From: a virus | DNA length: 64,000 bases | Virus record (IMG/VR): IMGVR_UViG_3300023301_000006 | Location: 1 to 64,000 of that record | Reading direction: 5' to 3' (one strand) | In this document: piece by piece, positions 7,189-46,962 of the stretch | How positions within the stretch are numbered: the stretch's first letter is position 1 | Layout: each line of letters opens with the position of its first letter | The notes under the pieces: generated by a model | Database searches by the model: none | Told to the model about the DNA's origin: nothing | The model's input: the letters and a program-made list of their open reading frames with translations, nothing else | Translations under genes and position numbers: made by a program

Positions 7189-7720
7189 TCGTTTCCCTCC
7201 AATATTCTTCTAAAGATGCAAAGCTAGAGTAGAACTCACCATTGCCCAAAACTTTTAATCCTCCAATAACAAATTGATTATATCCTTTTGGAACTCCCAT
7301 TCCAACATAATCTCCAGCTGTCTCTCTTCTTATGTCTGAAAGTATTGCATCTACCCTTATCTTTTTGAAAGGATTATGTTTCTGAATGATTGCTAAGGCT
7401 TCTGCATCTAACTCTGGAGTCATTTTGTCTAATGCTTCCATGAACAAGTTGCCAGACAAAACCATTCCTAGCTCCATCATTAATCCAGGGTCTTCGTTGT
7501 CTATTGGAGCGGTTACAACATCAGAGGTTAATATCTTACTCATATCCTGAAGAAAGATATCTTCATTCGTAGGGACACTATCCTTTTTATTTATTTCATC
7601 ATTGGCTATCGGATTATAAACTTTGAATCCTAGTTTTTCTAAGCTCTCTCCTTCTAGAACCCTTTGTCTTACTTCTGCCTCCGTAAAGAGCTCACCACCT
7701 ATATAAAATCTTAAACTCAT
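7172..7720 (-). CDS. Nucleoside 2-deoxyribosyltransferase
   Basis: YIGGELF, YNP, IFxxD, DPGLMMELG. Confidence 0.75.
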   Translation of the reverse strand: MSLRFYIGGELFTEAEVRQRVLEGESLEKLGFKVYNPIANDEINKKDSVPTNEDIFLQDMSKILTSDVVTAPIDNEDPGLMMELGMVLSGNLFMEALDKMTPELDAEALAIIQKHNPFKKIRVDAILSDIRRETAGDYVGMGVPKGYNQFVIGGLKVLGNGEFYSSFASLEEYWRETNGKHI

Positions 7721-14200: not shown

Positions 14201-14457
14201 AAAGCTTTTACTACTTTGCCTTGGTCTGCGTGTACTAATTCAGACTCAACCATATCCTGTACTTGTTCTATTGTGAAACTTTTACCCATAAAATCTTCAT
14301 GATGTTTAGCTTCTTCTTCTATAGTTCTTCCTATATCCGAACACAGCTTCATATCAAGTTCTACGTCTTTGACATCTGAAAAGGCTGAGGCTATAGCATT
14401 AATAACCTTGTCTTTCTGAAATTCTTCTTCACTTCCATCTCTTTTAATAATAAACAT
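11233..14457 (-). CDS. nrdJ: Class II (AdoCbl) ribonucleotide reductase with ATP cone; four exons 14457-13282, 12974-12759, 12477-12417, 12173-11233 (797 aa)
   Basis: Splicing restores VVGG|VRRAA, GEP|G, NP-C-AEI; also RTYSR, FNC, PAGT and C-terminal CESGHCPVR. Confidence 0.9.
12174..12416 (-). mobile_element. Group I intron (nrdJ intron 3, 243 nt) splitting the catalytic Cys codon
   Basis: P1 AATCCAT/GTGGATT, terminal G; T|GT restores NPCAEI. Confidence 0.85.
12478..12758 (-). mobile_element. Group I intron (nrdJ intron 2, 281 nt)
   Basis: P1 GAGCCT/GGGTTC, terminal G, P7 core; restores GEPG. Confidence 0.85.
12975..13281 (-). mobile_element. Group I intron (nrdJ intron 1, 307 nt, ORF-less)
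   Basis: Exon ends in U pairing U-G in P1 (GTTGGTGGT/GCCTCCAAC), terminal G, GACTA/ATAGTC P7 core. Confidence 0.85.
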
Positions 14458-15619: not shown

Positions 15620-18600
15620 TTAACTATGTTTCTCACTTCTCATTTCTAATTTTCCATCGTCTGTTATTTTTTCAATTAAGTAAACTAAACTTTGCTTTGT
15701 CCTGGAATAATCTTTCCCCCTAAAAGTGGTTTCGCTCGACCTATATCCAGTAATCATAATTTTGTTGCCCCTACTAAAAAAACTACTATCTATAATAGAG
15801 CTATTCTTTTTGACTTGTCTATCGTAGTACGCAAAATCAGAACCTTTAAACTTTACAGTAACGACTCCACTCCTAGTTAATATTTGAGTCATATGTTTAT
15901 TCTTATTTCTGCTAAGGCAAGTTCCAATTATCGTTGATAAGTGAAATACTGGGTACTTGTCTTTCCAATAAAACTTCACAGGTTTTATTTTTAAGTCTTT
16001 AAATTTATCCACGAATGGATAATATTCATAGTCTATATAGTCTAATTCATTGTCTGTGGCATAATAGGATATAGAATCCATTTCCCATTTACCTATTGTT
16101 CCTTCAGTATAGTGGGACGCTTCTTCCACTATTATGATTTTATTGTACTCTTTTAAAAGTTCTTTTTCATTCTCTTTAATAAATTTTCTTAACTTATCTG
16201 CATCTTTCTCATAAGTAGACTCGAAAACTGATGACTCTACTAAATATTTGTCTTTCTTGTAAACAACTTTTAACTCTGGGTGTTCTACATTTAAAAATTC
16301 AATCATCATTTCTTGTAATGGAAAATATTTTTTGTCATCTACCTTTATTTCTTCGTTTGAACGTAGTATTTTTCTTAAGTACCACATTATTGAGCTATTC
16401 TTAACTTTTGTATTACTAAAAAATTTAGCATCAAATAGTCCAGCCATATTCCTTAAAGACAAGGAAGTTTTTACCTTTGCTTTTCCAGCAATATAATCCA
16501 TTAATAATTCTCTTCTGTCTTTTTCTTCAATGTTCCTGAAGGCATTTGACTTAATCAAGGATATATTTTTCCTCTTTGACGGTTTTATTCTTTTATAAAA
16601 GTCTCCATAGCTAGTGTATGGTCTACTCTCTACTATTTCAGTAACAAGGTCATCACCAACGTAAGACATTCCTTTTAGTCCGAATAATATAACTCCTCCA
16701 TCAAAGTCTGGGGTAAATACATATCCAGATTTATTGATGTCTGGAGGTGCTATTGTTATTCCAACTTGCTCCATATTACTAATTGCCACAGCTACTTTAC
16801 CATAGTTAGAAGATGTGTTCTTATCTCCATCTTGGTCTATTGCACCACTTTCAACTGTTAAACAAGCTGAATTCCAAGCTAAGTCATTATACTCATATGT
16901 TAAGTTTAAAATTTGCAAAGCTATCATAGAATAAGGTAAGGTATGATTCCGACTAAAACTATCATGTTGTTCCCACATTTTTGTGGGCATGGACTAACTC
17001 TTTAAAGTTTAATATCTCTCTAATAAGGTATTAAACTTTATCCACTGTTTGGAGAATAGGAATTTCACCTAAACTCTACTTCCCTTGCGGGAATAGTCTC
17101 TACACTCGCTTTCGCTAGCACGGGATTGTCATATCCATAAATGGACTTAGATTTCCCCGTTAGCACTAAATTAATAGTACACCCTATATTTATAGGTTAA
17201 GTGGAATGGGCAATTTTATTTACCCAAGTTGAGGAACTACACAATGATGCCATACGTAATTTATTATTTCCTCTCTTGCTCCAGTTCTTTCCTTCGCTTT
17301 ATCGAAGTAATCTTCTTTTAACTTATCTATTAATTTAGCTTTCTTCTTTGCTATGGCTTTTCTAGCCTTATGTGCCTCTACAACAGTAAAGCCAGATATG
17401 GATTCGTCCATTAGGATTTCCATAATGTCTTCTTGTGTAGCCGCAATGCCGTAACTTTTATCTAAGTGTTTCTTCATTGTCATTATCTCATCTTCGTTTA
17501 AGCCTTGTAGGTGCATTTCTTCATACCAAAGACTTATATCCTTTCTAAACTTAATAAACTTATCTAATGGTTGAATACTTCCTCCACTAGATGATAATCT
17601 CATTAATGAGTTTGCTGTTGCCATCTCCACCAATGAATGAGGTGCTACTTCTCTTATGGCTTTAGAACCCACCATTGTATCAAATTGGAATAGAGAAACA
17701 ATTTCACCTTTCGCAGCTTTGTCCCACATTTCTAAGTTGTCATACTCAAGGACAGCAGGAGATAAATACTTATCATAAGTCTCCCTTAGTGTTTCTTGTC
17801 TTTCCATCGCACCGTTGGTGATTAAATGATTCATAGTTATTCTAATTTTATCTAGAATCTTTACAGTTAAGAAGTCAAATTTGACTCCTCCCATATACAT
17901 CTTTATCCTATGTTTCCACAGGGACGGACTATTTCATGTTCTATTTTAAAATAGAACTCTTGCACTTCGACTGGGACAATATCCAGTCTACGCCTCTCGG
18001 CTAGTCTCTACATCTTTCTCTTGCTTCAATAATAGTTTTTATAAAGTTCTGAGGTTTTAAAAGCCCTATAAAGTTGGGAATGCCCCTTTAAATTTAAGTC
18101 TCTTAGGACTAAAGTTACTGAGTCATATACCTCAACTAGATTCCAATTGATATCATATTTGTAAACTTTTTTAGAACTTGTTGCACCGACATCAACTTTA
18201 CCAATATTAGAACCAACAACTCCTTTTTTAGATTCACTTATTTTTTATTGTTATTTACACTATTATTAAAACTTAAGACTTGACACGAGATTGCCATATT
18301 GCCGAAGCAACTTAGGTTTCCTCGTTAGCTTAACCCCTTTAATAAGGATTAAACACCCTTTTTGTCGTAAGGTTCACAAAATTTACTATAACTCTCACAA
18401 GTTATAGGGACTATATAATTAATCCGAATCTGACATGTCAAACTGAGTTGTAGGAACATCACTCGGAGACATCATCAAAGCATTCCTTTTATAATAAGGT
18501 TCATTATATATATAGATACCAGAGGCATGTATGCTTCTCTTGTCTATAATTCCCTCGAATGCTAATATCGTCTCCTGTAATTTTTTATCTTCATATTCTT

Positions 18601-20233
18601 CCAACTTAGACAAAAACTCTTGTTGAACTCCTCTTTCCTTTTCTCTATTGCCGAATATAACGTCTGCCAATGGTCAGTTAGCACCCCTCTCTTCTGGAAC
18701 CAATCCAGTTAAATATAATGCTTCTGACTCCTCGATACCTAAACCACGACAAGCAGATGTTATACTACTCCTAGAGCCAATTGTTCCAAAGGTGGCTATG
18801 TTTAATACTCTATCTTCTCCAAACTCTACATTTAAAGCCTTAAGTATTTGACCTCTCTGTGACTTTTGTGAGTCCAAGTCAATGTCCATAATGTCTGGTC
18901 TGTCTTTGTGGAGAAACCTCCACCAAGGAATGTCCCATTTTAAAGGGTTTATTTGTATTATGTCTATCAAGTAATTTATTAATAATCCTGTTGCTGAACC
19001 CCTTGAAGGTCCTACAAGACTGTCTCCCTCTTCCCACATTATTTCAACTAATCTCTTTGTTGTCAATAAATAATTAGCCATATTCTTACCAATTCTCTCA
19101 CTCGTTCCTAGTATATGTTCTAATTCTACATCCACTCTTTGTAGTACTTCTTCTGTTGGTTCAATATCTTTTTTACTCTTTATTCCTCTTAACGTATGAT
19201 AAATTAGAGCCTTATCATATCTGTCCTGGCTATTTAAGTATCTAGTAATATATTTGTACCCCTTAAACATTTCTTTTGTCTTAGAGTCAAATTCATGGTC
19301 CTCAACTGGAACTTTGGTTATATCCACTGATTGAGCCAGACTAATATTCTGACATTGCTCTCCTATAATCAATGTATTTCTAAAGCATTCGTCTATTTCT
19401 TCTTCTGGAATGTGATTGTGCATTATTTCCTTTATTTCTTTTTCTGACATCATATAGGTAAAACCATAAAAGGCATCGACCTCTCTCTCTCCTTCTTGAG
19501 ATTGTAAAAAAGCTCTGTGAATACTTCTATCTTCTTTTGACAGATAATGGGAGTCAGTAGTTATTATACTCTTAATGTCTTTCGAATCCCCTATTGATTT
19601 TATCATTCTATTCACCATAGTTTGTTCTTCTGATGTTGATGGTTGTAATTCAAAAAAGAAGTTGTCTTTCTCAAAAGCATTGATACACCATTCGATAAAC
19701 TTCTTAATCCTATCTTGAGCTACTGATTTTTCTATCTCACCATTATACATCCCCATTAAAGTATTAGGCAGAAAACCACCTAAACAAGCTGTTGTAGCCA
19801 TTAAGTGACCTCTGTTTGTACTAATAATTTCTTCTATTTGGGAATAAGTTATTGGAACTCTTCTCATTCCTCTATCATAGTAAGAATTGGTCCAAGCTTG
19901 AGACGATATCTTTTTTAATTGCTCATAACCGATTTCATCTTTCGCTATTAATATAAAATGATAATACTGTTGATTGTTCCCTAGTGAATCTACTAAATAT
20001 ATTTCGTCTCCAAAAGCCACAGTAAAGTTTTCATCTATAACTCCTTCTTCTACTAATTTGGTTCTATATTTGTCTGCTTTCACATGTGAGCTTAATACCT
20101 CATGGTCTGTTATTGCTAAACCACTTAATCCTAGCTCTATTGCCCTATCTATTAAGTCTGTAACTTTATTTGTAGAGTCTGCTAGTCTTAAGTTAGAATA
20201 ATCTGTATGATTGTGTGAAGAAAAATAATTCAC
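15620..20233 (-). CDS. dnaE: DNA polymerase III alpha subunit; exons 20233-18422, 17897-17222, 16962-15620; one TGA=Trp
   Basis: PHP domain HNHTDYS/TDH/TTDSH, SRGSA, DIDLD, HASG, KFDFL, G|YSFSRNH; TGA at 18674-18676 in RGAN-W-PL. Confidence 0.92.
16963..17221 (-). mobile_element. Group I intron (dnaE intron 2, 259 nt)
   Basis: P1 GGGT/GCCC, terminal G, T|AT restores GYSFS. Confidence 0.85.
17898..18421 (-). mobile_element. Group I intron (dnaE intron 1, 524 nt) with endonuclease remnant
   Basis: P1 GGAT/GTCC, terminal G, restores DSD|YMGGVKFD. Confidence 0.85.
18008..18244 (-). pseudogene. 3' remnant of intron homing endonuclease (NUMOD-type DNA-binding tail)
   Basis: KISESKKG...KKVYKYDINWNLVEVYDSV...YKNYY(TGA=W); no start codon or catalytic domain. 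Confidence 0.65.
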
Positions 20234-23426: not shown

Positions 23427-26400
23427 TTAAAAGGTTTCGCTAGGGACATCCTCTGTACCCTGTTGTCTTTTTTTCTGTTCATTCTCAATAGTTATTACTG
23501 TTGACTTCATTGGTATTAATTCATATTTCGAATTAGTGACAAATAAATCAGTTATTCTACACGTTCCCAAATCTGCTATCGACCATAATTTTACGCCCTT
23601 GTACTTAGAACGTCTGTTCTTGTATACATGGAACACTATATTAGGTACTTCTAAGAAATTCTCATCTAAGATATGGGATATAGCTTTAATATCTTTTTCT
23701 GTTGGTTCTAAAGCAATTATTCCAACATCAATTTTCGTTTATACCGTCACTTTCGTGATATTTAATACGGACTAGACTATATCTGCACCTCCCTAGATGG
23801 GAGGGACTGGCTCTTCGTAATAAGGAATTACACCTTAAAACTACTCCCTTTATTGGCTGGGATAGTCGTTACACCTTTAACTAAACTTGGCACGGGATTG
23901 TCATAGGATTTCTCCCTTAGAGTTTCCCCGTTAGCACTAAATTAATAGCACACCTTACATTTGTAAGTTCACCAGTACCTAACTACGCCATTGCTGACAT
24001 AGACGACTCTAGTTTACTTTTTATTCGCATAGATTTATAATATTTTCTATGCTACTTACTTCTATTTTTTTTCAATTTCAACACACCTTTCTAAGATGCG
24101 AATAAAAAGTTATTCAAATCTGCCATTGATTTTGCCGTGTTACTCTTGTGTTTCCACAAGCACTGACTATCTCTTACTCTCCTACCAAGGAGAGAATTTC
24201 TGTTTCGGTTCTCAGTAGTTTAATTACTTAAAACTACGTTACTTATCAATAGTAACCCTACTTTCCATCTAACTGGAAATAGTCGATACAGCGACTTACT
24301 TAATACATTATTAAGTAATATGCCACGAGATTACCATAGCTCTCACCTTAGGCTTCCTCGTTAGCTTTAATTTGTTAAATTAAAACCCCACTTGATATGC
24401 GGATAAGAAATTTAGTGGCGTAAAAACACCACGTAATAAATTTTGTGTAGCTTGGTCTACTTTATCCCAGTCACCATTAACTTGCGTAGCAGTATATATA
24501 AAGACTCCTAACTCATTGGCTATCTTCTTTAATCTACTTACAAACATCAACAGAACATTATCTTCTCTTAGTCTGACTCCTCTACTGGCAGAAGCAATTT
24601 CGGCAAGTATCTTTAAAGTAGTGTGAACATAATCGAAAAATACATAATGTACATCATGCTTTAATTTATGTCTCGTTACCATATTGTCTACTTGTTGAAT
24701 ATTATGATTAGACAAGTGTTCTATCCAAATTGGAGCTCCCTTTATGATGTGTGCAGCTTCTATTACCCTTTCCTTTTCTCCTTCGTCATATTCTCCATCT
24801 AATATATGTGCCTCATTTACATTTGAGACAAAGGCAAGGAATAATGTTTGTATCTCTTGTATTTCTAGCTCTGTAGTAATAAATAGTGATGGCATACTTA
24901 TACCATTAGATACTCAATCATTTTTCTTTGAGTCCCAAACTTTATCTACTGCTAGGTTTATAGCATCTCCCGCACTGAATCTAGTATTGTGAGTTACAAT
25001 ATAATCATTCATTAGGAACAAGTGTTCATCGTTGTCAACTGTAAAACAAGTCATCTCTGTAGAGAAACCCATTTTTTCTATATTTACTATTGGATTATAA
25101 TCTTTATGCTCTTTTCTTTTTAACGTTAAAACATACTTATTCGCAATATTTAATTTTCTAGAAAACCTAAATACTTTTAGCTTATCTTCGTGTGGCATTT
25201 GTATATTAATTTTATAACAAACTCCTGTAGAGTATTTATCTCTTATGTCCTCTATGATTGTTGGTATATAACCAAGACTTCTAGCTAAACTCACAACGTC
25301 ATCTTTAAGTTTTACACTAATAGTGTGATAAGCAACTCTTCCTTTTTTATCTATTGAGCCATCTGTATCAAGAAGCCCCTGTAGTAGGCACATTCTTTGG
25401 TCTATAGACCCCAATAAATAGTCGTCAGGAATAAATTTATCTTCACTTTTGGCATTCCATAAGTCTTTGTAACCTATTGATTCTTCAACAGAAATTCTGT
25501 TGTTAGTGTTTTTTTCTTTCCTAAAGAACCAAGAATAGTTTTCACTTTTTTCTTTCTCATAGTGCCACCCCTCTAATTTGGACATTGTAGATATTATTTC
25601 TTCATCGGCAGCAGAGAACGTTAAATCTCTTCTTCCACTTACATACCTGAAACTTCCATCTCCCAATAGTGCTCCAAAAGTGTAGGGTTTAAGTCCATAT
25701 TCTTTTTCATTATACTCAACTGCACCATTTATCGGAACTTTAAAAGTATACCCACTTGTTCCTTTAAATCCACCAAGAGATTTAGCTTCTTCGAGTATCT
25801 GCTTAGTAGTTTTTGTCTTATGGGCACATCTTCTATCTGTAAAATATTCCCATAAGTGTTCGTCACATGTTTCGGCAACTCTACCATCAGCGAAAGTAAC
25901 TTTGTTTATTTCTTTTTCACTCTCTTGCGGATGGACGCCCACTACTTTTGTTGGCTTTCCATTTCTTCCAAAAATGTAAGAACCAATTTTTACCTCATCA
26001 ACCCTTTTAAATCCTTCTGGAGTTGGTATCTTAGTATAGTTTGGGATAGCCTTCCCCACACCAGTAGGAGCACTTCTCATATAGAGTTTTTTAAGTCTTG
26101 CACCTCTTACGATACCGTTTATATAACTGCCATTTAAAGGTAGTCCAATTGCAGGTTTTTCTAATAAGTCATCTATTAAACCAACAATATTTTGACCAGC
26201 TCTTTGTCCATAACTATCTGCACTCATTTCAAAGCTTTGTCTAACCTCTACTATCTTCATGTCTACTAGATTAATTATTTCATTTATAGACATCTTGTCT
26301 AAACCATTTTGCATTTTTTCTTTCTTGTCTGAATTAAGTTCGTCTGGGTCATATATAAATCTTATGTCTACCCCAGACTTCAAATAAGCCCTCAATAAAG

Positions 26401-26755
26401 AGAACTTTTTTACACGATTATAGTAATACACAAAATTGTCTCCATCAGCACTATTCTTTGCAAATTCAAGAGCTTCTAGTCCTCTATTACTCCGAAATAT
26501 TTCATACTGCTCTGGATACTTATTTAAATAACTGTCTATCGCAATAGAGTCCAACCTATCCACTCCAGAATTAACTAAATTATTTATCGCAGAGAAAACA
26601 ATTCTATGATGTCTTGCTACAAAATCTGACACCTCTAATTTAAATCTATCATGTTTTAATAATGTTGTTGGGTTGTTCAAAAGAGCACCAAATAACATTA
26701 ATACTGCTTTGTTGTCGTACAATTCTTCTATATTTATATCTTTAAAACTACTCAA
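23427..26755 (-). CDS. dnaB: Replicative DnaB-like helicase with intein, two introns and one TGA=Trp; exons 26755-24428, 24135-24118, 23735-23427
   Basis: APTGVGK/T Walker A split by intein, FFDY, TATQ, spliced LRG|AKSMAD|KIDVG, KNRR; TGA 24914-24916. Confidence 0.9.
23736..24117 (-). mobile_element. Group I intron (dnaB intron 2, 382 nt)
   Basis: Exon ends in U, terminal G, P7 core; shares CCCCGTTAGCACTAAATTAATAG with dnaE intron 2. Confidence 0.8.
24136..24427 (-). mobile_element. Group I intron (dnaB intron 1, 292 nt)
   Basis: P1 GTGGT/GCCAC, terminal G, GACTA/ATAGTC core. Confidence 0.85.
24986..26050 (-). mobile_element. Class 3 intein (355 aa) with LAGLIDADG endonuclease in DnaB P-loop
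   Basis: Starts with Ala, ends THN/T; WCT triplet (HLW, MTCF, VTHN); LLGDG and LQGLLDTDG. Confidence 0.88.
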
Positions 26756-26765
26756 AGTTCACCTC

Positions 26766-27260
26766 CTATAATTCTTTCATATCTATCTTTCTTTTCTCGA
26801 AAACACTTTTTTTATCTGGTCTCGCTATAACTACCTTATGTTCTTCCTTATTCACTTTTTGGTTACCAGACTCCTTGCTCTCTTTAACCTTCCTATAGTA
26901 AATAGAAGCGTCCTCATAAACGTAGGGTACTATTCCTATTCCGCCATGAGCTTTCTTAGTAGAATTCCCTTCTAGTATAAACCAGTACTCTAGGGTTTTT
27001 CATATGCCAAAGTAAGTGTAACCTTTTTTTTGATAGTCTTTTATCTGTTTAAGTATTCTAGGACTTGGATATTTTATATCAAATATTTTTTTTATTATTT
27101 CCACCATATTTTCATGGTTTACCACAGAATTCGCTTCATCAACTTCTGCTTGTTCTTCTACACATTCTTTGTGATAATATCTTCTTCCCTTCTTCACAAA
27201 ATCCACTTCTTCTTTATAGAAGCGTTCCTCACAAACTGGACATTTTACTTTATTTGCCAT
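26766..27260 (-). CDS. Zn-finger protein upstream of helicase; one TGA=Trp
   Basis: CPVC...YHKEC; read-through of TGA 27000 gives TLEYWF...GIGIVPYVY ending TAG just before dnaB RBS. Confidence 0.75.
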
Positions 27261-28396: not shown

Positions 28397-29284
28397 CTAA
28401 AAGTTTGATGGGTCAAAACTACCGCCAGAACCACTAGTCTCTTTAGCTTTAGGTTTAGCAGGCTTAGATGTTTTGCTTTTTGACTTTAAATTGATATTTC
28501 TCATCTTAAGTGCTTCTTTAACTTCTTCAATGGCATATTCTTTACCATCTGAGTAAGGAGTTGTTCCTCTAGTGACAAGCAATCTTTTCTTCGATACTGT
28601 TCTTTCTTGAACAATGTCTTCTCCAAAAGCCATCTCTTCTGTCTTGGTGATAGTAACTTCTTTATTTTTCATTTGACCGAATAATTTAACAGTGTCTCCT
28701 TTTTTATATTGAGACTCAACGTAACTCACTCCTTGTGGACTTTCTACTGCAAATTCTAACTCCACAACGCTTCCTGCGTACCCAATAAAATAACCTTTTA
28801 TAATCTTAGCTCCTGTTTCCATTTGTGTTTCCTCATCCATTTCATCAAATATAGAGTCAATTAATACTTCAACTTCGAATGTTCCAGTAGGTTCGAATTC
28901 TCCTTTTATTCTATTTGGGAATACACCTCTTACATTGTAGTTCTCAAGTATACTTCCATCATCTGTCATAAAACTATTTGGAGATAACTCTGCACTAGTA
29001 AATTCTACATTATCTCCTTTTTGCCCTTCTCCTGCGTCTGCTGAAGACTTATAAGTTTCCATGATAGATTTGAAACTCTTGAATAATTTACTTTCCCCAC
29101 CAGCTTTTTTAAACTTTCCTGCATACATGTTTACTTTGACAATATTATCATCACTTGTTTTGATTGACAAGTCTCCTGCGATATAGGGGAAACCATCTCT
29201 CTTACTAATATTTTGCTCGAGAGTATTCTCCATTAATTCTCCCTTAATAACTACTGAACTGTAACCCTGTCTTAAATCTGACAT
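28397..29284 (-). CDS. ssb: Single-stranded DNA-binding protein
   Basis: Tandem OB-like halves, FGE linker, flexible tail ending in F; replication operon context. Confidence 0.6.
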   Translation of the reverse strand: MSDLRQGYSSVVIKGELMENTLEQNISKRDGFPYIAGDLSIKTSDDNIVKVNMYAGKFKKAGGESKLFKSFKSIMETYKSSADAGEGQKGDNVEFTSAELSPNSFMTDDGSILENYNVRGVFPNRIKGEFEPTGTFEVEVLIDSIFDEMDEETQMETGAKIIKGYFIGYAGSVVELEFAVESPQGVSYVESQYKKGDTVKLFGQMKNKEVTITKTEEMAFGEDIVQERTVSKKRLLVTRGTTPYSDGKEYAIEEVKEALKMRNINLKSKSKTSKPAKPKAKETSGSGGSFDPSNF

Positions 29285-35344: not shown

Positions 35345-35645
35345 ATGTTATTGACAAATTACTATAATTTTGATATAATACAAGTATAGTAAAAAAATAA
35401 AACATATTAAATAATAATACGAAAAAAAGTTATTGACGAATTACTTATAATATGATATAATATAAGTATAGTAAAAAAATAAAACATATTAAATAACAAT
35501 ATGAAAAAAAAGTTATTGACAAATTACTTATAATATGATATAATATAAGTATAGTAAAAAAATAATATGAAGAAAAAAATGAGAAGAAGTTGTTGACAAA
35601 TTGAGTAAAATATTATATAATATTTATATAGTATAAAAAAAATAA
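35345..35645 (+). promoter_or_regulatory. Four tandem near-consensus sigmaA promoters (~80-bp repeat)
   Basis: TTGAC(A/G) at 35351, 35433, 35516, 35593, each N17 before TATAAT, with A-rich UP-like tracts. Confidence 0.85.
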
Positions 35646-35669
35646 TATTAAAAAAGGAGTTGGACATTT

Positions 35670-36062
35670 ATGAAAATCACTATCAAAGATGTGTACGCAA
35701 GAATCGAACAGAACTTAGGTATTGACTTAACAGAACAGGGTGAATTAGCAATGAAGCAGTTAGAAGATGAAGCTAATCCATTCTCAGACGCAGACTTCAT
35801 CAAAAAAGGTGATATCGTTATCACTAAAGGTGGAGAAGGTAAGTCATTCATTGTTGTATTAGTTGATGAGAGATTAATCTTAGCTACTTTAGACCCTAAC
35901 TCAGGTAAAAAGCATGACTTGAAAGAAATTAACACTTATAATGCTCATCAAGATAAGAACAAAGTCTTCTTATCTGAACTAAGAAACAAGTTAACTTCAT
36001 TCTCTGATTGTGTTGTTATTGACAAGTGCAGAGTAGATAGTATTGTTGTTAATGTAAAGTAA
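35670..36062 (+). CDS. Hypothetical protein, probably highly expressed
   Basis: Downstream of promoter array, AAGGAG RBS, followed by hairpin near 36080-36110. Confidence 0.75.
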   Translation: MKITIKDVYARIEQNLGIDLTEQGELAMKQLEDEANPFSDADFIKKGDIVITKGGEGKSFIVVLVDERLILATLDPNSGKKHDLKEINTYNAHQDKNKVFLSELRNKLTSFSDCVVIDKCRVDSIVVNVK

Positions 36063-36119
36063 TCTAAGTAAGTAAGGTTCTCTACCCACTCTTTAATTAG
36101 GGTGGGAGAGGTATCAACC

Positions 36120-36148
36120 TTGACAAAAGCACAAGAGTGTGATATAAT
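36120..36148 (+). promoter_or_regulatory. Consensus promoter for the ncRNA/tRNA island
   Basis: TTGACA-N17-TATAAT with extended -10 TG. Confidence 0.85.
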
Positions 36149-36156
36149 ACAAACAT

Positions 36157-36738
36157 GGTCTTTTAAAATTTAGTAATAACCACAACTAACCCAGTGAATA
36201 AAAAGTTTAACTAGCTTTTCTGGGACATATAGAAGATAGAGAGGTACGTTCTAAGGATATTTTGAATGTATAATCTTTTGCAGATAAGTAATTAAAAGCG
36301 AAAAGGAAGAAACTTCCAATTATAATATGTGTTGCAAATCTATTATTGTACTCAAAAGTACAAACCTAGTCGTTGTAATAATCCGTCTTCTAACCGAAGA
36401 TAACCTAAAATCTAGAGCCTATGGACGGCTTGTAGGGACTTAGGAATCCAACGAATACAATCAGTCTTGAACAGAGGAAACTCTGGTATAAGATTAGAAT
36501 TTGGTGCAAGTAGCCCTATGACTAAACAAAATTGGAATAACTTAAAATATAAAGTTATCAAGATGAATAGCGGGTGAAAGTTGCAAGTACACAATCTTGC
36601 TTAGGATTTTATTGGGGTAGAAAGTATGGGGGTAGCTCCTCTGTGCTCATCCTACTCTGCCTAGTGACTGAATATGATATGGTAATAGACTTGTAGAGTG
36701 AAGATTCAGTTGTGATTATTACTAAGTTTTAAAAGACT
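36157..36738 (+). ncRNA. ~580-nt structured RNA, ROOL-like
   Basis: No ORF; the two ends form a ~31-bp helix with G-U pairs; many internal hairpins; size and tRNA-adjacent phage context fit ROOL. Confidence 0.65.
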
Positions 36739-36745
36739 TGTTAAT

Positions 36746-36814
36746 GGGGGTGTAAAGAGGTCGACAGGTGCTTTAGTATACTGGACATGAGTTTAATTCT
36801 CATCACCTCCACCA
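36746..36814 (+). ncRNA. Minimal tmRNA: tRNA-like domain only (69 nt)
   Basis: GGGGGTG/CACCTCC-A-CCA with G3-U70, stemless D-loop ending TCGAC, short P2 hairpin, GGAC then T-arm; no tag ORF. Confidence 0.75.
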
Positions 36815-36821
36815 TAAACTT

Positions 36822-36896
36822 GGGAATATAGTCAAGCGGTTAAGACACTACACTTTCACTGTAGTATCGCAAGTTCGATTCTTGCTATTCTCACCA
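36822..36896 (+). tRNA. tRNA-Glu(TTC)
   Basis: Cloverleaf, CTACA-CTTTCAC-TGTAG, CCA. Confidence 0.85.
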
Positions 36897-36950
36897 TATA
36901 CCTTTTCCCCTTTGTTGTGTGGGAAATTAAATATAGCACAACTACATTAT

Positions 36951-37025
36951 TGCCCTTTCGTCTAATGGTTAGGACGCCAGACTTTCACTCTGGAAACTTG
37001 AGTTCGACTCTCAAAAGGGTAACCA
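36951..37025 (+). tRNA. tRNA-Glu(TTC)
   Basis: CCAGA-CTTTCAC-TCTGG, CCA. Confidence 0.85.
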
Positions 37026-37030
37026 AATAA

Positions 37031-37116
37031 GGAGTAGTATGCAAATGGTTAAGCAAACGGGTTGCTAACTCGTGGCGGTTAAACGCTTGTAGGTTCAAGT
37101 CCTATCTACTCTTCCA
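37031..37116 (+). tRNA. tRNA-Ser(GCT)
   Basis: ACGGG-TTGCTAA-CTCGT, long variable arm. Confidence 0.88.
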
Positions 37117-37120
37117 ATAT

Positions 37121-37198
37121 GTAAATATAGCTCAGTTTGGTTAGAGCATCTGGTTGCCAATCAGAATGTCGTGGGTTCAATTCCCACTATTTACTCCA
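37121..37198 (+). tRNA. tRNA-Gly(GCC)
   Basis: TCTGG-TTGCCAA-TCAGA, U73. Confidence 0.88.
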
Positions 37199-37204
37199 AA
37201 ATAA

Positions 37205-37281
37205 TGCAGAGTGGAACGTTGGTTTTTCCATCGAGGCTCATATCCTTGATTACATGGGTTCGATTCCCATCTCTGCATCCA
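37205..37281 (+). tRNA. tRNA-Met(CAT), possibly initiator
   Basis: CGAGG-CTCATAT-CCTTG. Confidence 0.75.
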
Positions 37282-37284
37282 TAA

Positions 37285-37376
37285 GGAAGGTTACTCAAAT
37301 GGTTATACGAGCGTAGCTTTGAAAGCTAATGTGTCTGAAATACGGCTTGGGGGTTCGAATCCCTCACCTTCTTCCA
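37285..37376 (+). tRNA. tRNA-Ser(TGA)
   Basis: TAGC-TTTGAAA-GCTA, long variable arm. Confidence 0.85.
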
Positions 37377-37382
37377 AAATGT

Positions 37383-37457
37383 GTATGTATAGCTAAAAGG
37401 CTTAGCATTCGGCTGTTAACCGAAAGTATATTGGTTCGAATCCAATTACATACGCCA
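37383..37457 (+). tRNA. tRNA-Asn(GTT)
   Basis: TTCGG-CTGTTAA-CCGAA, G73. Confidence 0.85.
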
Positions 37458-37728
37458 TAAGTCCCACTATGAGGGCATAAAGGCTTTGATGGAAACCCCA
37501 TCTGAAAGAGCGTATGGAAGCTCTAGTGTCTAAATCACATTAGTTTATAGATACGACATTTAAAAACAAATTTTTAAGAAATTGAATTGTGATAGCCTAT
37601 TAAGACTAAGGGCTTAAAATACAGAGTCTCACCATTGGCGGCAACCGAAAGTCGTGGGCTTAATTGCCCTTTCAAGTTATTAGGAACCCATTGGGGCTAA
37701 AGGTTTAAAATAGATAGTCCTATTATAA

Positions 37729-37799
37729 CTAGGTGTGGGATAATGGTTGTCCGCTAGCTTTGGGAGCTAGTGACGGGGGTTCGATTCCTCCCACTTAGA
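37729..37799 (+). tRNA. tRNA-Pro(TGG), CCA not encoded
   Basis: CTAGC-TTTGGGA-GCTAG; acceptor CTAGGTG/CACTTAG. Confidence 0.82.
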
Positions 37800-37924
37800 A
37801 GTGGATATAAGTATATTGTATCTAGTTCTAAGTGCACAATAGTTTTGAGTAAATAAAAAAATGTTGTTGCAAGATTATTCATTTAATGATATAATATAAG
37901 TATAGAAAGAAATAAAAAAAATAA

Positions 37925-38001
37925 GGTCGTCTAATCCAACTGGCAGAGATAATAGGTTTAAGCCCTATCAAGTGTGGGTTCAACTCCCACGGCGACTACC
38001 A
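37925..38001 (+). tRNA. tRNA-Leu(TAA), short variable region
   Basis: ATAGG-TTTAAGC-CCTAT. Confidence 0.8.
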
Positions 38002-38008
38002 ATAATAA

Positions 38009-38082
38009 TGTGATATAGTCAAGTGGTAAGACAATAGACTTTGAATCTATCAGCCTTGGTTCGAATCCAAGTATCACAACCA
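38009..38082 (+). tRNA. tRNA-Gln(TTG)
   Basis: ATAGA-CTTTGAA-TCTAT, U1-A72. Confidence 0.88.
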
Positions 38083-38251
38083 GAATGAAGGAGTAGAGGT
38101 CGCACCTCGAGGTAGGATGAAAGCTATCCGTAAAGGGAAAGCGGATAAATATCTCTGATTGATAGTTAGAGAAAAGTTTTTTGTAGTCTTAATAATACCA
38201 CCAACGCATTGGCTCTAAACGTTGAAAAAAATATAGAGAGCCATTAAGTAT

Positions 38252-38326
38252 GGTGGTTATAGCTCAATGGTAGAGCACATGGTTGTGGTCCGTGCTACTT
38301 GGGTTCGATTCCCAATAATTACCCCA
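38252..38326 (+). tRNA. tRNA-His(GTG)
   Basis: CATGG-TTGTGGT-CCGTG, G-1:C73. Confidence 0.88.
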
Positions 38327-38330
38327 ATAA

Positions 38331-38407
38331 GCTCCAATAGCTCAATCTGGTAGAGCAACTGCCTTGTAAGCAGTAGGTTGTAGGTTCAATTCCTATTTGG
38401 AGCTCCA
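38331..38407 (+). tRNA. tRNA-Thr(TGT)
   Basis: ACTGC-CTTGTAA-GCAGT. Confidence 0.9.
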
Positions 38408-38443
38408 AAATCTTTTCCATACCAAAGGAAAAGTGTTTAATAT

Positions 38444-38528
38444 GGTATAGCTGAGCACTGGTGAGCTCCGCAGACTGTAAATTTGTCGTCGAAAGGCTTT
38501 GTTGGTTCAACTCCAACCTATACCACCA
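38444..38528 (+). tRNA. tRNA-Tyr(GTA)
   Basis: GCAGA-CTGTAAA-TTTGT, long variable arm. Confidence 0.88.
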
Positions 38529-38533
38529 AATAT

Positions 38534-38609
38534 GTTCCAGTAACTCAGTTGGGAGAGTGTCTGCCTTACAAGCAGAAGGTCGTAGGTTCGAGTCCTACTT
38601 GGAACACCA
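38534..38609 (+). tRNA. tRNA-Val(TAC)
   Basis: TCTGC-CTTACAA-GCAGA. Confidence 0.9.
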
Positions 38610-38615
38610 AAATAT

Positions 38616-38690
38616 GCGGATATCGTATAATGCTTATTACCTCTGGCTTCCAACCAGATGACGAGAGTTGAATTCTCTCTATCCGCTCCA
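38616..38690 (+). tRNA. tRNA-Gly(TCC)
   Basis: TCTGG-CTTCCAA-CCAGA. Confidence 0.88.
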
Positions 38691-38713
38691 AATTACTAAT
38701 AGGAGGCAAAGAA

Positions 38714-38806
38714 ATGTGAATATGTGAAAAATGTTCAAAAACTTATAATTATCGTCCAAAAGATGATATTTGTGAGAAATGTACTGCAGATTGTTATTTT
38801 CAATAA
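38714..38806 (+). CDS. 30-aa zinc-ribbon peptide with TGA as codon 2
   Basis: AGGAGG RBS then ATG-TGA-ATA-TGT: M-W-ICEKC...ICEKC. Confidence 0.65.
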
Positions 38807-38824
38807 AAAGGAGGAGGTACTACA

Positions 38825-39145
38825 ATGATGACTGAAGAAGAATTATTTGAAGACTTTGACACTTGAGAAGATAGGTTCTTAGAAGCTTACGAAAATGGTG
38901 TGAAATTTGATGAAAGTCTTATGGGAAATTTAGCTTGGGAAGCAGAAGTACAAAATGAACATGACAAGCTTCGTTGGCAAATAGTAATGGAATCTATATT
39001 CCAAGTCAAGAACAGATACTTTTGTATTGACTGGCAAAAAGGTTTAACAGAGAGCCAAATAGATTCATTCTCAGAACAACCATATGAAGTTGAGAAGATA
39101 GAAAGAGAAGTTACTAAGATGGTTGTTACTTGGGTAAAGAAATAA
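38825..39145 (+). CDS. Hypothetical protein; one TGA=Trp
   Basis: GGAGGAGG RBS before ATG 38825, TGA 38864; paralog of 10692-11024. Confidence 0.7.
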
Positions 39146-39153
39146 CCATATTA

Positions 39154-39230
39154 GGACCTGTAACTCAGTTGATTAGAGTATTCGACTCATAATCGAACGG
39201 TCATTGGTTTAAATCCAATCAGGTCCACCA
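39154..39230 (+). tRNA. tRNA-CAT (Ile2 or elongator Met)
   Basis: TTCGA-CTCATAA-TCGAA; GGACCT acceptor resembles Firmicutes Ile2. Confidence 0.8.
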
Positions 39231-39235
39231 AATAT

Positions 39236-39318
39236 GGGTGTGTAATCTTAAACTGAGCTGAGCTTAGGTGAGTCTCCAACACTCATGATAAAACGTTTGA
39301 TTCGTTACATGCCTGCCA
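39236..39318 (+). tRNA. Atypical tRNA-Trp(CCA)
   Basis: GTGAGT-CTCCAAC-ACTCAT, G73-CCA; enlarged D region and 4-bp T-stem. Confidence 0.65.
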
Positions 39319-39323
39319 ATTAT

Positions 39324-39421
39324 GAGAGTGTATAGCAGTGAAGTACTGTGGCGGTCTTCAAAACCGTACGGCTGAGGTCCAAACTTGGTTTATGAGGGAG
39401 CGTTACCTTCCATTCTCGCCA
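39324..39421 (+). tRNA. UCA-anticodon (opal-reading) tRNA with long variable arm
   Basis: GCGGT-CTTCAAA-ACCGT (TCA at 39358-39360), acceptor GAGAGTG/CATTCTC, G73-CCA, non-canonical T-loop AGCGTTA. Confidence 0.85.
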
Positions 39422-39459
39422 ACAATAAATGTTTGCGGAGCATACCAAAACCGTTTTAA

Positions 39460-39590
39460 TAGTGTGGGAAGTCCAGAGAGTGGACGCTTAAGACAATAAT
39501 GTGAGTTAAATAAAGGTGGGTAATCGTCTTTCCTTGTGAAGATTGAACCACTTTAACTCGATGCTAGGTTAAAATCCTAGCCCCACTACA
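39460..39590 (+). ncRNA. tRNA-like RNA with expanded central domain
   Basis: End pairing TAGTG..GGG/CCCACTA, D-like hairpin GTCCA/TGGAC, T-arm GCTAGG-TTAAAAT-CCTAGC, no normal anticodon arm. Confidence 0.5.
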
Positions 39591-39699
39591 TATACATATA
39601 AACATACACTCTTAATAAATTAAATCTAAATGAATTTGGAAACAGCTCTCTATTAGGAGAAGAGTTGTACAACATAAAAATTTACCAAGGAGGAAGATT

Positions 39700-40215
39700 A
39701 TGACAAATTTAAAGAGGAATACAAGTGCTTTACTGGTAGTATTGGGTTTATTAATGCTAGGTTTACTAACTGGGTGTGGTGTAAACCAAATTGAGCCAAA
39801 AGAAACTGAAGTCGAAGTAGAGGAACCTACGGTCGAAGTAGAAGAAACTGAGGTTGCATTAGAAGACAGAGGTGTTGCCGCAAGTGATATATACACTCCA
39901 GAAGTGTTAGCCGCTTTTAGAAAGACTTGTGATACTTTTGAGAATAAACCAGAGAATGTAAGAGCAATGCAAAAGAAAATTGCCATCGAAGATTGGACTG
40001 AAAACGGTGTAACTGATTGGGATATGGTTGATTATATAATTGAAAAACAGATGGAAAACTACCATTGGTTCTTAAGTGAAGTAAATAGAACTGACTTTGA
40101 CGGAACAGTTAATGAAGAAATAATAATAATGTCACTTGCTACATGGTCATATGATTTTGAAATGATTAAATATGACTATGAAAAACAAGTAACAGCTTAT
40201 TTAAAAGTGAATTAG
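39700..40215 (+). CDS. Lipoprotein
   Basis: Signal peptide with LTGC lipobox, acidic linker, internal repeat DxxMxxYxxEKQxxxY. Confidence 0.75.
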   Translation: MTNLKRNTSALLVVLGLLMLGLLTGCGVNQIEPKETEVEVEEPTVEVEETEVALEDRGVAASDIYTPEVLAAFRKTCDTFENKPENVRAMQKKIAIEDWTENGVTDWDMVDYIIEKQMENYHWFLSEVNRTDFDGTVNEEIIIMSLATWSYDFEMIKYDYEKQVTAYLKVN

Positions 40216-46467: not shown

Positions 46468-46962
46468 TTATATTAAGAACTCTTTATCGTATCTGTTTAC
46501 TAAATTAGCATTATAAAAATCATAATCTCCAGTTACTTCTTCAGCGATATCTTCAATAGCTCCAACAAAACTCTCTGCATCAACAACACTTTCAAATTCC
46601 TTTTCTATTAAAACTAGTGACCTATCTTGAAAAACGTCTACTTCATATTCTTCAGAACAATATACAACAACAAGTCTACTTTTAGACAGGGAGTTCACTT
46701 CTTTTCCACCGAAAAGCTCCATCTTTTCATCAAAGTCCTTCATTGTTGTTCTGAAGGTTAGTTCATTCCTTACAAGTCCAAACCCTTCTTTATATACAAC
46801 TAAAGGCTCTTTTTGTTTAAGTCGAATTCTAATTTCATGTTCTCCCATGGATAAATATTTTTGGTATATATGGATTATCTTAATTATTTCACACTCTCTT
46901 AAGAATTCTTCAACGTCACCTTTAAACCACCATTTTCTTTCTATTTCCATCTTCTGTTTCAT
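46468..46962 (-). CDS. CYTH-domain protein
   Basis: EIERKW, QxYL, RIR, EVDVF, ExEF. Confidence 0.8.
   Translation of the reverse strand: MKQKMEIERKWWFKGDVEEFLRECEIIKIIHIYQKYLSMGEHEIRIRLKQKEPLVVYKEGFGLVRNELTFRTTMKDFDEKMELFGGKEVNSLSKSRLVVVYCSEEYEVDVFQDRSLVLIEKEFESVVDAESFVGAIEDIAEEVTGDYDFYNANLVNRYDKEFLI

What the first reader, a model, noticed from the sequence alone, without database searches (positions are those of the whole stretch)
36746..36814. tmRNA stripped to its tRNA-like domain
The 69-nt RNA has tmRNA-specific ends (G3-U70 Ala identity, A73-CCA, stemless D-loop ending UCGAC, GGAC before the T-arm), but the pseudoknots and tag ORF are replaced by a short hairpin. It should be alanylated and bind SmpB yet cannot tag. 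Inference: an SmpB decoy or tag-free rescue RNA protecting phage proteins when ribosomes pause at recoded UGA codons or when host tRNAs are cut.
Basis: partly seen in the sequence, partly recalled or inferred. Interest (0 to 1): 0.85.

Follow-up and report, generated by a model that had tools for sequence, protein, structure and literature searches.

The report
Phage tmRNA reduced to tRNA-like head
This phage carries a real, conserved 69-base gene for only the alanine-accepting, tRNA-shaped head of the bacterial ribosome-rescue RNA (tmRNA), a little-known kind of phage RNA that probably interferes with the host's tagging of stalled proteins.

Summary
Window 36746-36814 (+) matches both ends of Rfam's tmRNA model, with 318 model positions replaced by 13 nt. 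It scores 36.2 and 44.8 bits (cut-off 47). There is no tag frame and no pseudoknot.

It is not a recent deletion. A 90%-identical metagenome relative keeps 68 of 69 bases, while the spacer before it keeps 12 of 19. One motif scan of IMG/VR found 142 carrier loci, and 139 have fully paired stems that the motif did not require. Their central hairpin covaries.

The kind is known from one phage, mycobacteriophage DS6A, which I re-checked (PMC4131195). This scan has reported it before on other DNA.

Local features: the gene lies 19 nt after a ROOL RNA, at the head of a tRNA array, behind a consensus promoter. The phage reads TGA as Trp. No carrier encodes SmpB (0 of 50, and none in this record).

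Most likely it is a competitor of host tmRNA for SmpB, which is untested. The proposed link to UGA recoding is not supported as a family trait.

The parts
36120..36148 (+). Promoter-like site TTGACA-17-TATAAT with TG before the second hexamer, about 18 nt before the ROOL RNA. Candidate promoter of the whole RNA operon.
   Evidence: 12 of 12 consensus matches, the only such site in 35600-39700. The total count of promoter-like sites there (14) is no more than in shuffles (13.1), so this is a consensus match and not proof of function.
36166..36726 (+). ROOL RNA, a large ornate phage RNA, immediately upstream on the same strand.
   Evidence: RF03087, 293.2 bits (cut-off 99.1), model 1-574. It is 92.3% identical in relative L129.
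36746..36814 (+). The finding: a 69-nt gene for the tRNA-like domain (TLD) of tmRNA only. Acceptor 36746-36752 with 36804-36810 (G3:U70); D region 36753-36762; central (P2) hairpin 36763-36785, made of tandem G.A/A.G, then C-G, A-U, G-C, a bulged A, 4 more pairs and a UUUA loop; linker C 36786; T arm 36787-36803; ACCA 36811-36814.
   Evidence: RF00023 36.2 and 44.8 bits, global. (68 of 69 conserved in L129). (family covariation). The upper part of the hairpin is my reading; its one substitution in L129 turns G.U into G-C.
36822..39230 (+). tRNA array that begins 7 nt after the mini-tmRNA, same strand, with CCA encoded in the genes.
   Evidence: 15 ARAGORN tRNAs. (one more at 38616-38687, which I read as anticodon UCC). 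No terminator-like site between ROOL, the mini and the first tRNAs.
39324..39417 (+). Weak Sec-shaped tRNA-like match with anticodon loop CUUCAAA (anticodon UCA) at the tail of the array. Candidate UGA decoder of this TGA=Trp phage.
Evidence: RF01852, 24.0 bits (cut-off 47), E 0.0084 on a 216-nt search.

Best explanation
It is a working gene for a tag-less mini-tmRNA.

- It is transcribed with the ROOL RNA and the tRNAs from the promoter at 36120-36148, and cut out by the tRNA-processing enzymes (inferred from layout).
- Host alanyl-tRNA synthetase charges it through G3:U70 and A73 (inferred from established identity rules, recalled).
- Its D region, tandem G.A pairs and T arm let it bind the host's SmpB, because the phage has none of its own.
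- With no message to offer, it competes with host tmRNA for SmpB, and possibly for EF-Tu and the empty A site. This lowers ssrA tagging and the proteolysis that follows during infection.

Shown: identity, conservation, family membership and the absence of phage SmpB. Inferred: expression, charging, SmpB binding and inhibition.
For: - Both tmRNA ends are present, with the middle replaced by 13 nt. The tmRNA model beats the tRNA model by about 18 bits in the same tool (44.8 against 26.5).
- Purifying selection: in relative L129 the gene keeps 68 of 69 bases. The spacer before it keeps 12 of 19, upstream coding 86.6%, ROOL 92.3%, and four of the next seven tRNA genes 98.7%.
- Family: 139 of 142 IMG/VR loci have all acceptor and T pairs formed, though the motif did not ask for it.
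- Among 91 distinct sequences, central-helix pairs 4-8 are formed in 427 of 455 cells, with up to 6 pair types. When the partner is slid they are formed in 37-47%. None of 500 shuffles reaches the observed count.
- Phage bias: the same motif over 185,579 prokaryote species gives 105 hits, of which only 25 have full stems.
- No SmpB in this record. None in 50 carrier records, 11 of them at least 90% complete.
- One complete phage has both a full-length tmRNA and a mini, so the mini is not a mere substitute.
- Precedent: the DS6A 'TLD only' element aligns to RF00023 in the same way, at 43.2 bits. [quoted passage not shown]
Against: - There is no direct evidence of transcription, charging or SmpB binding.
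- The score is under Rfam's cut-off.
- The T loop reads UUUAAUU, with U where C56 normally stands. In the alignment of 91 this loop occurs only in the window and L129. U at that position recurs in 13 other distinct sequences (UUUGAUU, UUUGAAU, UUUGAUC).
- The thermodynamic best fold (-21.9 kcal/mol) keeps the acceptor stem but not the T arm. The tmRNA-like fold scores -17.5.
- Mitochondria and plastids keep message-less tmRNAs together with SmpB (PMC11915505). That points to a rescue role for this architecture rather than an inhibitory one.
- The inhibition experiment is known to me only through two citing papers.
- The motif fixed G3:U70, UCGAC, GGAC and ACCA, so their constancy in the family is by construction.
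Confidence: 0.5

Rival explanations
1. Tag-free rescue. Ala-mini-tmRNA with host SmpB and EF-Tu enters stalled ribosomes and accepts the nascent chain. The ribosome is then freed by drop-off or hydrolysis without a degradation tag. The phage keeps ribosomes turning over while host mRNA is destroyed, and no product is marked for proteolysis.
For: - The parts needed for entry are the same as in the decoy model.
- Message-less tmRNAs persist in mitochondria and two plastids. The mitochondrial ones co-occur with SmpB, and the authors read that as still helping with incomplete mRNAs (PMC11915505, passage).
- Carriers have no SmpB of their own.
Against: - No release step is known for a peptidyl-TLD without a stop codon.
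- One complete phage carries a full-length tmRNA as well as a mini, so rescue alone does not explain the mini.
- A similar molecule is reported to inhibit tmRNA, not to replace it (PMC4131195).
Confidence: 0.25
2. A role independent of SmpB. It could be a tRNA-shaped processing or stability element of the ROOL-tRNA operon, where RNase P cutting at its 5' end would set the 3' end of ROOL. Or it could be a sponge for another host factor that reads acceptor stems.
For: - It lies 19 nt after ROOL and 7 nt before the first tRNA, with no terminator between them.
- In L036 a different mini lies 24 nt before a ROOL.
- All 22 minis with a tRNA within 500 nt share the tRNA's strand.
Against: - Any tRNA would serve as a processing handle.
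- 120 of 142 minis have no tRNA within 500 nt.
- ROOL passes its cut-off in only 2 of 100 carrier records.
- The tmRNA-specific D region and G.A pairs would not be needed for processing.
Confidence: 0.12
3. One reading: the mini protects phage proteins from tagging when ribosomes pause at the phage's recoded UGA codons.
For: - This phage does read TGA as Trp. A Pfam DNA_pol3_alpha match runs across the TGA, and that TGA aligns with Trp of SPbeta YorL.
- TGA is about 22% of Trp codons, 33 TGA against 120 TGG.
- A weak tRNA(UCA) closes the same array.
Against: - 74 of 123 carrier loci of 5 kb or more have at least 80% of their bases in standard-code frames of 100 codons or more.
- None of 9 read-through frames tested, from 9 of the 18 crude recoding candidates, had a domain across the stop.
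- tmRNA acts on ribosomes with an empty A site, not on stop codons as such (established knowledge, recalled).
Confidence: 0.08
4. A decaying remnant of a full phage tmRNA or of a tRNA-Ala, with no function.
For: It scores under the Rfam cut-offs for both tmRNA and tRNA. The T loop is unusual.
Against: - 68 of 69 bases are kept where the adjoining spacer keeps 12 of 19, and the one change strengthens the hairpin.
- All stems are perfectly paired.
- The family-wide hairpin covaries.
Confidence: 0.03

Closest known systems
'TLD only' tmRNA of Mycobacterium phage DS6A (tmRNA Website tmID 11587; PMC4131195; called CDS-less in PMC11915505)
   Same: - Phage-borne, with both tmRNA ends and a short hairpin in place of the message and pseudoknots.
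- The same global alignment to RF00023, just under the cut-off: DS6A 43.2 bits with 312 positions replaced by 20 nt; this gene 36.2 bits with 318 replaced by 13 nt.
- Neither is annotated or called by standard tools.
   Different: - 69 nt against 83 nt.
- AT-rich against GC-rich (46% against 69% G+C).
- CCA is encoded here. DS6A ends CACUA in the alignment.
- DS6A's element stands alone between protein genes. This one heads a tRNA array, next to a ROOL RNA, in a phage that reads TGA as Trp.
Bacterial one-piece tmRNA (Rfam RF00023)
   Same: Acceptor stem with G3:U70, A73-CCA, a stemless D region ending UCGAC, tandem G.A pairs opening the central (P2a) helix, GGAC, and the T arm.
   Different: No resume codon, no tag frame and no pseudoknots. 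About 300 nt shorter. It cannot perform the message half of trans-translation.
Message-less tmRNAs of jakobid mitochondria and of two Mallomonadaceae plastids (PMC11915505; Rfam RF02544 for the mitochondrial ones)
   Same: Reduced to about 65-80 nt with no tag frame. The mitochondrial ones co-occur with SmpB (passage).
   Different: They are organelle genes inherited vertically from full tmRNAs. This one is viral. The mitochondrial model gave no match here, but it rang in no control genome either, so this is uninformative.
Undescribed phage family of 64-89-nt mini-tmRNAs in IMG/VR
   Same: Same motif set, same three helices and same size class. Its short-hairpin form (64-69 nt) is in 47 IMG/VR loci.
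   Different: - Most family members pass Rfam's tmRNA cut-off: 49 of 50 records and 11 of 11 loci. This gene and its relative L129 do not.
- Most stand alone, whereas this one sits in a tRNA array.

Membership tests
tmRNA (full trans-translation RNA, RF00023) | tRNA-like domain: 7-pair acceptor with G3:U70, A73-CCA, stemless D region, T arm | tested here: met
   all present and aligned at posterior probability near 1.
tmRNA (full trans-translation RNA, RF00023) | mRNA-like domain with resume codon and tag reading frame | tested here: not met
   Only 13 nt lie between the two strands of the central helix. The 72-kb record has no other tmRNA-like match beyond tRNA cross-hits.
tmRNA (full trans-translation RNA, RF00023) | Pseudoknots PK1-PK4 | tested here: not met
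   318 model positions are absent.
tmRNA (full trans-translation RNA, RF00023) | Score at or above Rfam's gathering cut-off (47 bits) | tested here: not met
   36.2 bits and 44.8 bits.
TLD-only / CDS-less tmRNA (DS6A type) | Both tmRNA ends joined by a short hairpin, no tag frame, borne by a phage | tested here: met
   The DS6A element was aligned the same way.
TLD-only / CDS-less tmRNA (DS6A type) | Inhibits host tmRNA, perhaps by titrating SmpB | not testable with these tools
   Known only as cited in PMC4131195 and PMC11915505. Mao et al. 2009 is not held.
IMG/VR mini-tmRNA family | Covarying central helix opened by G.A/A.G and C-G, plus covarying acceptor and T stems | tested here: met
   The window has G.A, A.G, C-G, A-U, G-C. 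In the family, pairs 4-8 are formed in 427 of 455 cells.
tRNA-Ala (RF00005) | Anticodon arm and D stem; score at or above 29 bits | tested here: not met
   No anticodon arm. 26.5 bits. ARAGORN makes no call.
Two-piece (permuted) tmRNA (RF04321) | Permuted order, with the acceptor piece before the coding piece | tested here: not met
   19.9 bits (cut-off 47), covering only the 3' half of the tRNA-like domain and running into the next tRNA. The gene is in standard order and continuous.
Mitochondrial tmRNA (RF02544) | Match to the family model | tested here: inconclusive
   No match, but the model rang in none of the 14 control genomes.

The most novel reading that the evidence does not exclude
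The mini-tmRNA works as a unit with the ROOL RNA beside it. It lies 19 nt after ROOL here and in L129. A different mini lies 24 nt before a ROOL in L036. On this reading the alanine-accepting head brings SmpB, EF-Tu or stalled ribosomes to the ROOL nanocage, or the reverse. The perfect-promoter operon (ROOL, mini-tmRNA, tRNAs, UGA-reading tRNA) would then be one translation-takeover module of a recoded phage.
Probability: 0.06. Interest if true: 0.85.

Novelty: new member of a known kind. Interest (0 to 1): 0.58.

Why it matters
Trans-translation is the main ribosome-rescue and protein-tagging pathway of bacteria, and it is an antibiotic target. A natural RNA of 64-89 nt that phages use against it or in place of it would be a compact tool and a new front in phage-host conflict.

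In print I found only one phage example, DS6A, and only in passing remarks. Yet one strict motif finds 142 IMG/VR loci, and my rough extrapolation is about 226. Most of these pass Rfam's tmRNA cut-off, so pipelines may be naming them 'tmRNA' without noting that they are tag-less.

This window adds:
- a member that escapes both ARAGORN and the Rfam cut-off;
- the first verified carrier that reads TGA as Trp;
- a direct neighbourhood with ROOL, an abundant RNA of unknown function.

Tried and rejected
- **Expression:** no RNA holder listed for window 36100-37500. All four runs laid were DNA contigs.
- **Variation in those runs:** contigs of four lake or salt-lake studies span ROOL, the mini and the tRNAs, with 91 other letters and 5 gaps in 1401 bases. 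The table of substitutions was cut (67 rows not shown), so I cannot say whether the mini varies there. The listed indels lie at 36740, 36742 and 36745, and none lies inside the gene.
- **Thermodynamic fold:** the best fold does not give the T arm. I rely on the covariance model and on family covariation instead.
- **Close relatives:** blastn against 50,697 GenBank phages found only tRNA-sized matches. A motif specific to this gene found 0 in IMG/VR and 1 in JGI metagenomes, L129.
- **Partner protein:** frames of 60 aa or more within 3 kb of the mini in 121 loci were clustered. The largest cluster covers 13 loci, so there is no universal neighbour.
- **SmpB:** none in this record, and none in 50 carrier records.
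- **ROOL link:** over its cut-off in 2 of 100 carrier records. A single-sequence nhmmer search had found the same two.
- **Recoding link:** crude coding-density screens flagged 18 of 123 loci. None of 9 read-through frames, from 9 of those loci, had a Pfam domain across the stop.
- **Other checks that gave nothing:** the mitochondrial tmRNA model was uninformative. Mao et al. 2009 is not held. The 271-nt spacer at 37458-37728 has fold z -1.59 and no Rfam match.
- **Split tmRNA:** I did not run a dedicated search for a separate tag frame. I saw only that no other tmRNA-like match exists in the record.
- **Supplements:** supplements of the papers were not opened. The tmRNA database tables of PMC11915505 may list further phage entries.

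Full report
**What is there.** Window 36746-36814 (+) reads as follows.
- A 7-pair acceptor stem, GGGGGUG with CACCUCC, whose third pair is G:U.
- A 10-nt unpaired D region that runs into UCGAC.
- A short hairpin, then GGAC.
- A 5-pair T arm with loop UUUAAUU.
- ACCA at the 3' end.

Rfam's tmRNA model aligns to it from its first to its last position, with 318 model positions replaced by 13 nt. The scores are 36.2 bits, E 1.6e-13, on a 161-nt search, and 44.8 bits, E 4.1e-18, on the whole record. Both lie under the curated cut-off of 47, so the gathering search is silent. ARAGORN is silent too. The generic tRNA model gives 26.5 bits against a cut-off of 29. The permuted-tmRNA model gives 19.9 bits and covers only the 3' half.

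**Where it sits.** The window is the first 64 kb of a 72,423-base IMG/VR virus record, estimated 48% complete.
- A ROOL RNA lies at 36166-36726 (293 bits), ending 19 nt before the gene.
- The first of 16 tRNA genes starts 7 nt after it.
- A 12-of-12 consensus promoter with an extended -10 lies at 36120-36148. No terminator-like site lies between ROOL, the mini and the first tRNAs.
- The tRNA genes encode CCA, as the mini does.

I infer one transcript, cut up by the tRNA-processing enzymes. No RNA data were available to test this.

**It is under selection.** A JGI metagenome contig, L129, is 90% identical over 4.4 kb. Identity by feature is as follows.

| Feature | Identity to L129 |
|---|---|
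| Mini-tmRNA | 68 of 69 |
| 19-nt spacer before it | 12 of 19 |
| Upstream coding region | 86.6% |
| ROOL | 92.3% |
| Four of the next seven tRNA genes | 98.7% |

The single change, U32 to C, turns a G.U pair of my proposed upper hairpin into G-C. The energy of the tmRNA-like fold goes from -17.5 to -19.5 kcal/mol. The change is also neutral for the competing best fold, so on its own it does not decide between the folds.

**It belongs to a large phage family.** I wrote a motif that fixes only these elements: GGGG, UCGAC, GGAC, three T-loop bases and UCCACCA.
- A version limited to short hairpins found 47 loci and was not at the limit. 25 of those 47 were among the first 120. If the first sample was even, the strict motif has about 226 carriers. 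This is a rough extrapolation of mine.
- In 139 of 142 loci, all 12 acceptor and T pairs are formed. Nine of these pairs are not fixed by the motif. By eye, the other three loci pair in a register shifted by one base.
- I aligned 91 distinct sequences: 89 family members plus the window and L129. Two distinct sequences from three loci were dropped for the shifted register.
- In that alignment the free acceptor and T positions show 3-5 pair types. Their 100% pairing is partly by my filter.
- The central helix was not filtered. Its pairs 4-8 are formed in 427 of 455 cells with up to six pair types. With the partner slid by 1-2 positions, 37-47% are formed. Shuffling partners gives a mean of 219 (sd 9.7), and none of 500 shuffles reaches 427.
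- The constancy of G3:U70, UCGAC, GGAC and ACCA in this set is by construction and proves nothing.

Rfam's tmRNA model scores family members above its cut-off in 11 of 11 loci and in 49 of 50 whole records.

**It is mainly viral.** The same motif over one genome for each of 185,579 prokaryote species gave 105 hits, not at a limit. Only 25 have all stems formed. By eye, the others are the 3' parts of ordinary full-length tmRNA genes that happen to fit the motif. Several of the 25 lie on short contigs of metagenome bins.

**What the carriers lack or have.**
- SmpB (PF01668) is absent from this record. It is absent from 50 of 50 carrier records, 11 of them at least 90% complete. The control genomes rang.
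- No protein family recurs beside the gene. The largest cluster covers 13 of 121 loci.
- 120 of 142 minis have no tRNA within 500 nt. The 22 that do share the tRNA's strand.
- One complete 123.6-kb phage (G006) holds both a 392-nt tmRNA (94 bits; ARAGORN finds no recognisable tag) and an 82-nt mini. The two share a near-identical T arm but have compensated differences in the acceptor stem.

**ROOL.** The literature places ROOL in phages and prophages, near tRNA islands, and suggests co-transcription with tRNAs (PMC5737381, passages; bioRxiv 10.1101/2024.12.08.627333, passages). The second paper never mentions tmRNA. Among 100 carrier records, ROOL passes its cut-off in 2.
- In L036 an 82-nt mini lies 24 nt upstream of ROOL.
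- In L115 an 81-nt mini lies 1.4 kb downstream of ROOL, in the same array.

The neighbourhood is therefore recurrent but rare. It is most simply explained by both genes living in tRNA islands.

**The genetic code.** Reading TGA through joins split frames into whole proteins.
- A DnaE-type polymerase has a Pfam DNA_pol3_alpha match that runs across the TGA. That TGA aligns with Trp in SPbeta YorL, at 43% identity over 620 columns.
- A permease and an intein-bearing DnaB helicase are joined in the same way.
- In frames of 150 codons or more I count 33 TGA against 120 TGG, and 20 of 54 frames carry a TGA. The count is approximate.
- ARAGORN finds no Trp or suppressor tRNA in the 72 kb.

Its use as the reason for the mini does not hold.
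- 74 of 123 carrier loci of 5 kb or more have at least 80% of their bases in long standard-code frames.
- Of the 18 loci flagged by a crude screen, I tested 9 read-through frames from 9 loci. None showed a domain across the stop.

**Comparison with what is known.** PMC4131195 lists 'Mycobacterium phage DS6A (TLD only)'. [quoted passage not shown] 2009 (passages). PMC11915505 calls such forms CDS-less. It adds mitochondria and two plastids, and says the DS6A-like form inhibits endogenous tmRNA in E. coli (passage). I could not obtain Mao et al..

I located the DS6A element at 28478-28560 of JN698994, unannotated, between gp33 and a DNA polymerase III gene. It aligns to RF00023 in the same global way at 43.2 bits. 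Four full-text searches found no paper that describes a family of such phage genes. The library lacks most subscription journals, and I opened no supplements. Earlier follow-ups of this scan reached the same family on other DNA.

**Mechanism.**
- Shown: the gene's identity, its conservation, its family, and the lack of phage SmpB.
- From established knowledge, recalled: G3:U70 with A73 suffices for alanylation even of minihelices. SmpB binds the D-loop and T-loop elbow and the start of the central helix of tmRNA.
- Inferred: the RNA is made, charged and bound by host SmpB. Having no message, it competes with host tmRNA.

I put about 0.5 on this decoy reading and 0.25 on tag-free rescue, which the organelle precedents favour. 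Smaller weights go to a role independent of SmpB, to the UGA-specific version, and to decay.

**Verdict.** This is a real gene and a further member of a known but barely described kind. It is of moderate to good interest because the family is large, viral and experimentally open. This member adds a TGA=Trp phage and a ROOL neighbour.

Noticed in passing
window 36166-36726 and 36120-36148: A ROOL RNA (293 bits) sits behind a perfect TTGACA-17-TGnTATAAT promoter and heads an operon of the mini-tmRNA plus 16 tRNAs. A well-defined ROOL transcription unit in an uncultured phage whose DNA is held by a hypersaline-lake metagenome run.
   Followed up: partly
window 18422-20233, 24383-26782, 6064-7209 (all -): TGA is read as Trp. 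The DnaE-type polymerase, a DnaB helicase carrying a LAGLIDADG intein, and a xanthine/uracil-type permease are each split by TGA and made whole by reading it through.
   Followed up: yes
window 39324-39417 (+): Weak tRNA-Sec-shaped match (24 bits, cut-off 47) with anticodon UCA at the tail of the tRNA array. Candidate phage-encoded UGA decoder. Just before it, at about 39236-39310, I read by eye an aberrant tRNA-like stretch with a CCA anticodon.
   Followed up: partly
window 12538-12809 (-) and 13026-13291 (-): Two group I introns (94.8 and 71 bits) lie close together. The second overlaps the 3' part of the 13216-14457 reading frame.
   Followed up: no
window 38616-38687 (+): A tRNA found by Rfam (57.8 bits) but not by ARAGORN. 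By eye its anticodon is UCC (Gly).
   Followed up: partly
window 37458-37728 (+): A 271-nt gap inside the tRNA array is 98.2% identical in relative L129, which is more conserved than several tRNAs. It has no Rfam match and fold z -1.59. Unexplained.
   Followed up: partly
window 38713-38806 and 38825-39145 (+): Two small genes inside the tRNA array have strong ribosome-binding sites and in-frame TGA codons, at codon 2 and codon 14. The first looks like a CxxC...CxxC zinc ribbon. This was read by eye.
   Followed up: no
G006 (record of L018): 77588-77979 and 46486-46567: A complete 123.6-kb phage carries both a 392-nt tmRNA, whose tag ARAGORN cannot identify, and an 82-nt mini-tmRNA. The two have a near-identical T arm but a compensated difference in the acceptor stem.
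   Followed up: partly
L139, L161, L175, L151 (Saccharibacteria bins), L149 (Iainarchaeum bin): Fully paired mini-tmRNAs of 65-73 nt lie on contigs binned to Saccharibacteria and to a DPANN archaeon. They may be phage contigs in the bins or real host-borne copies.
   Followed up: no
L036 3239-3941 (-) and L115 1391-3438 (-): Two other phage tRNA arrays hold both a ROOL RNA and a mini-tmRNA of a different size class (82 and 81 nt). In L036 the two are 24 nt apart, in the opposite order to the window.
   Followed up: partly
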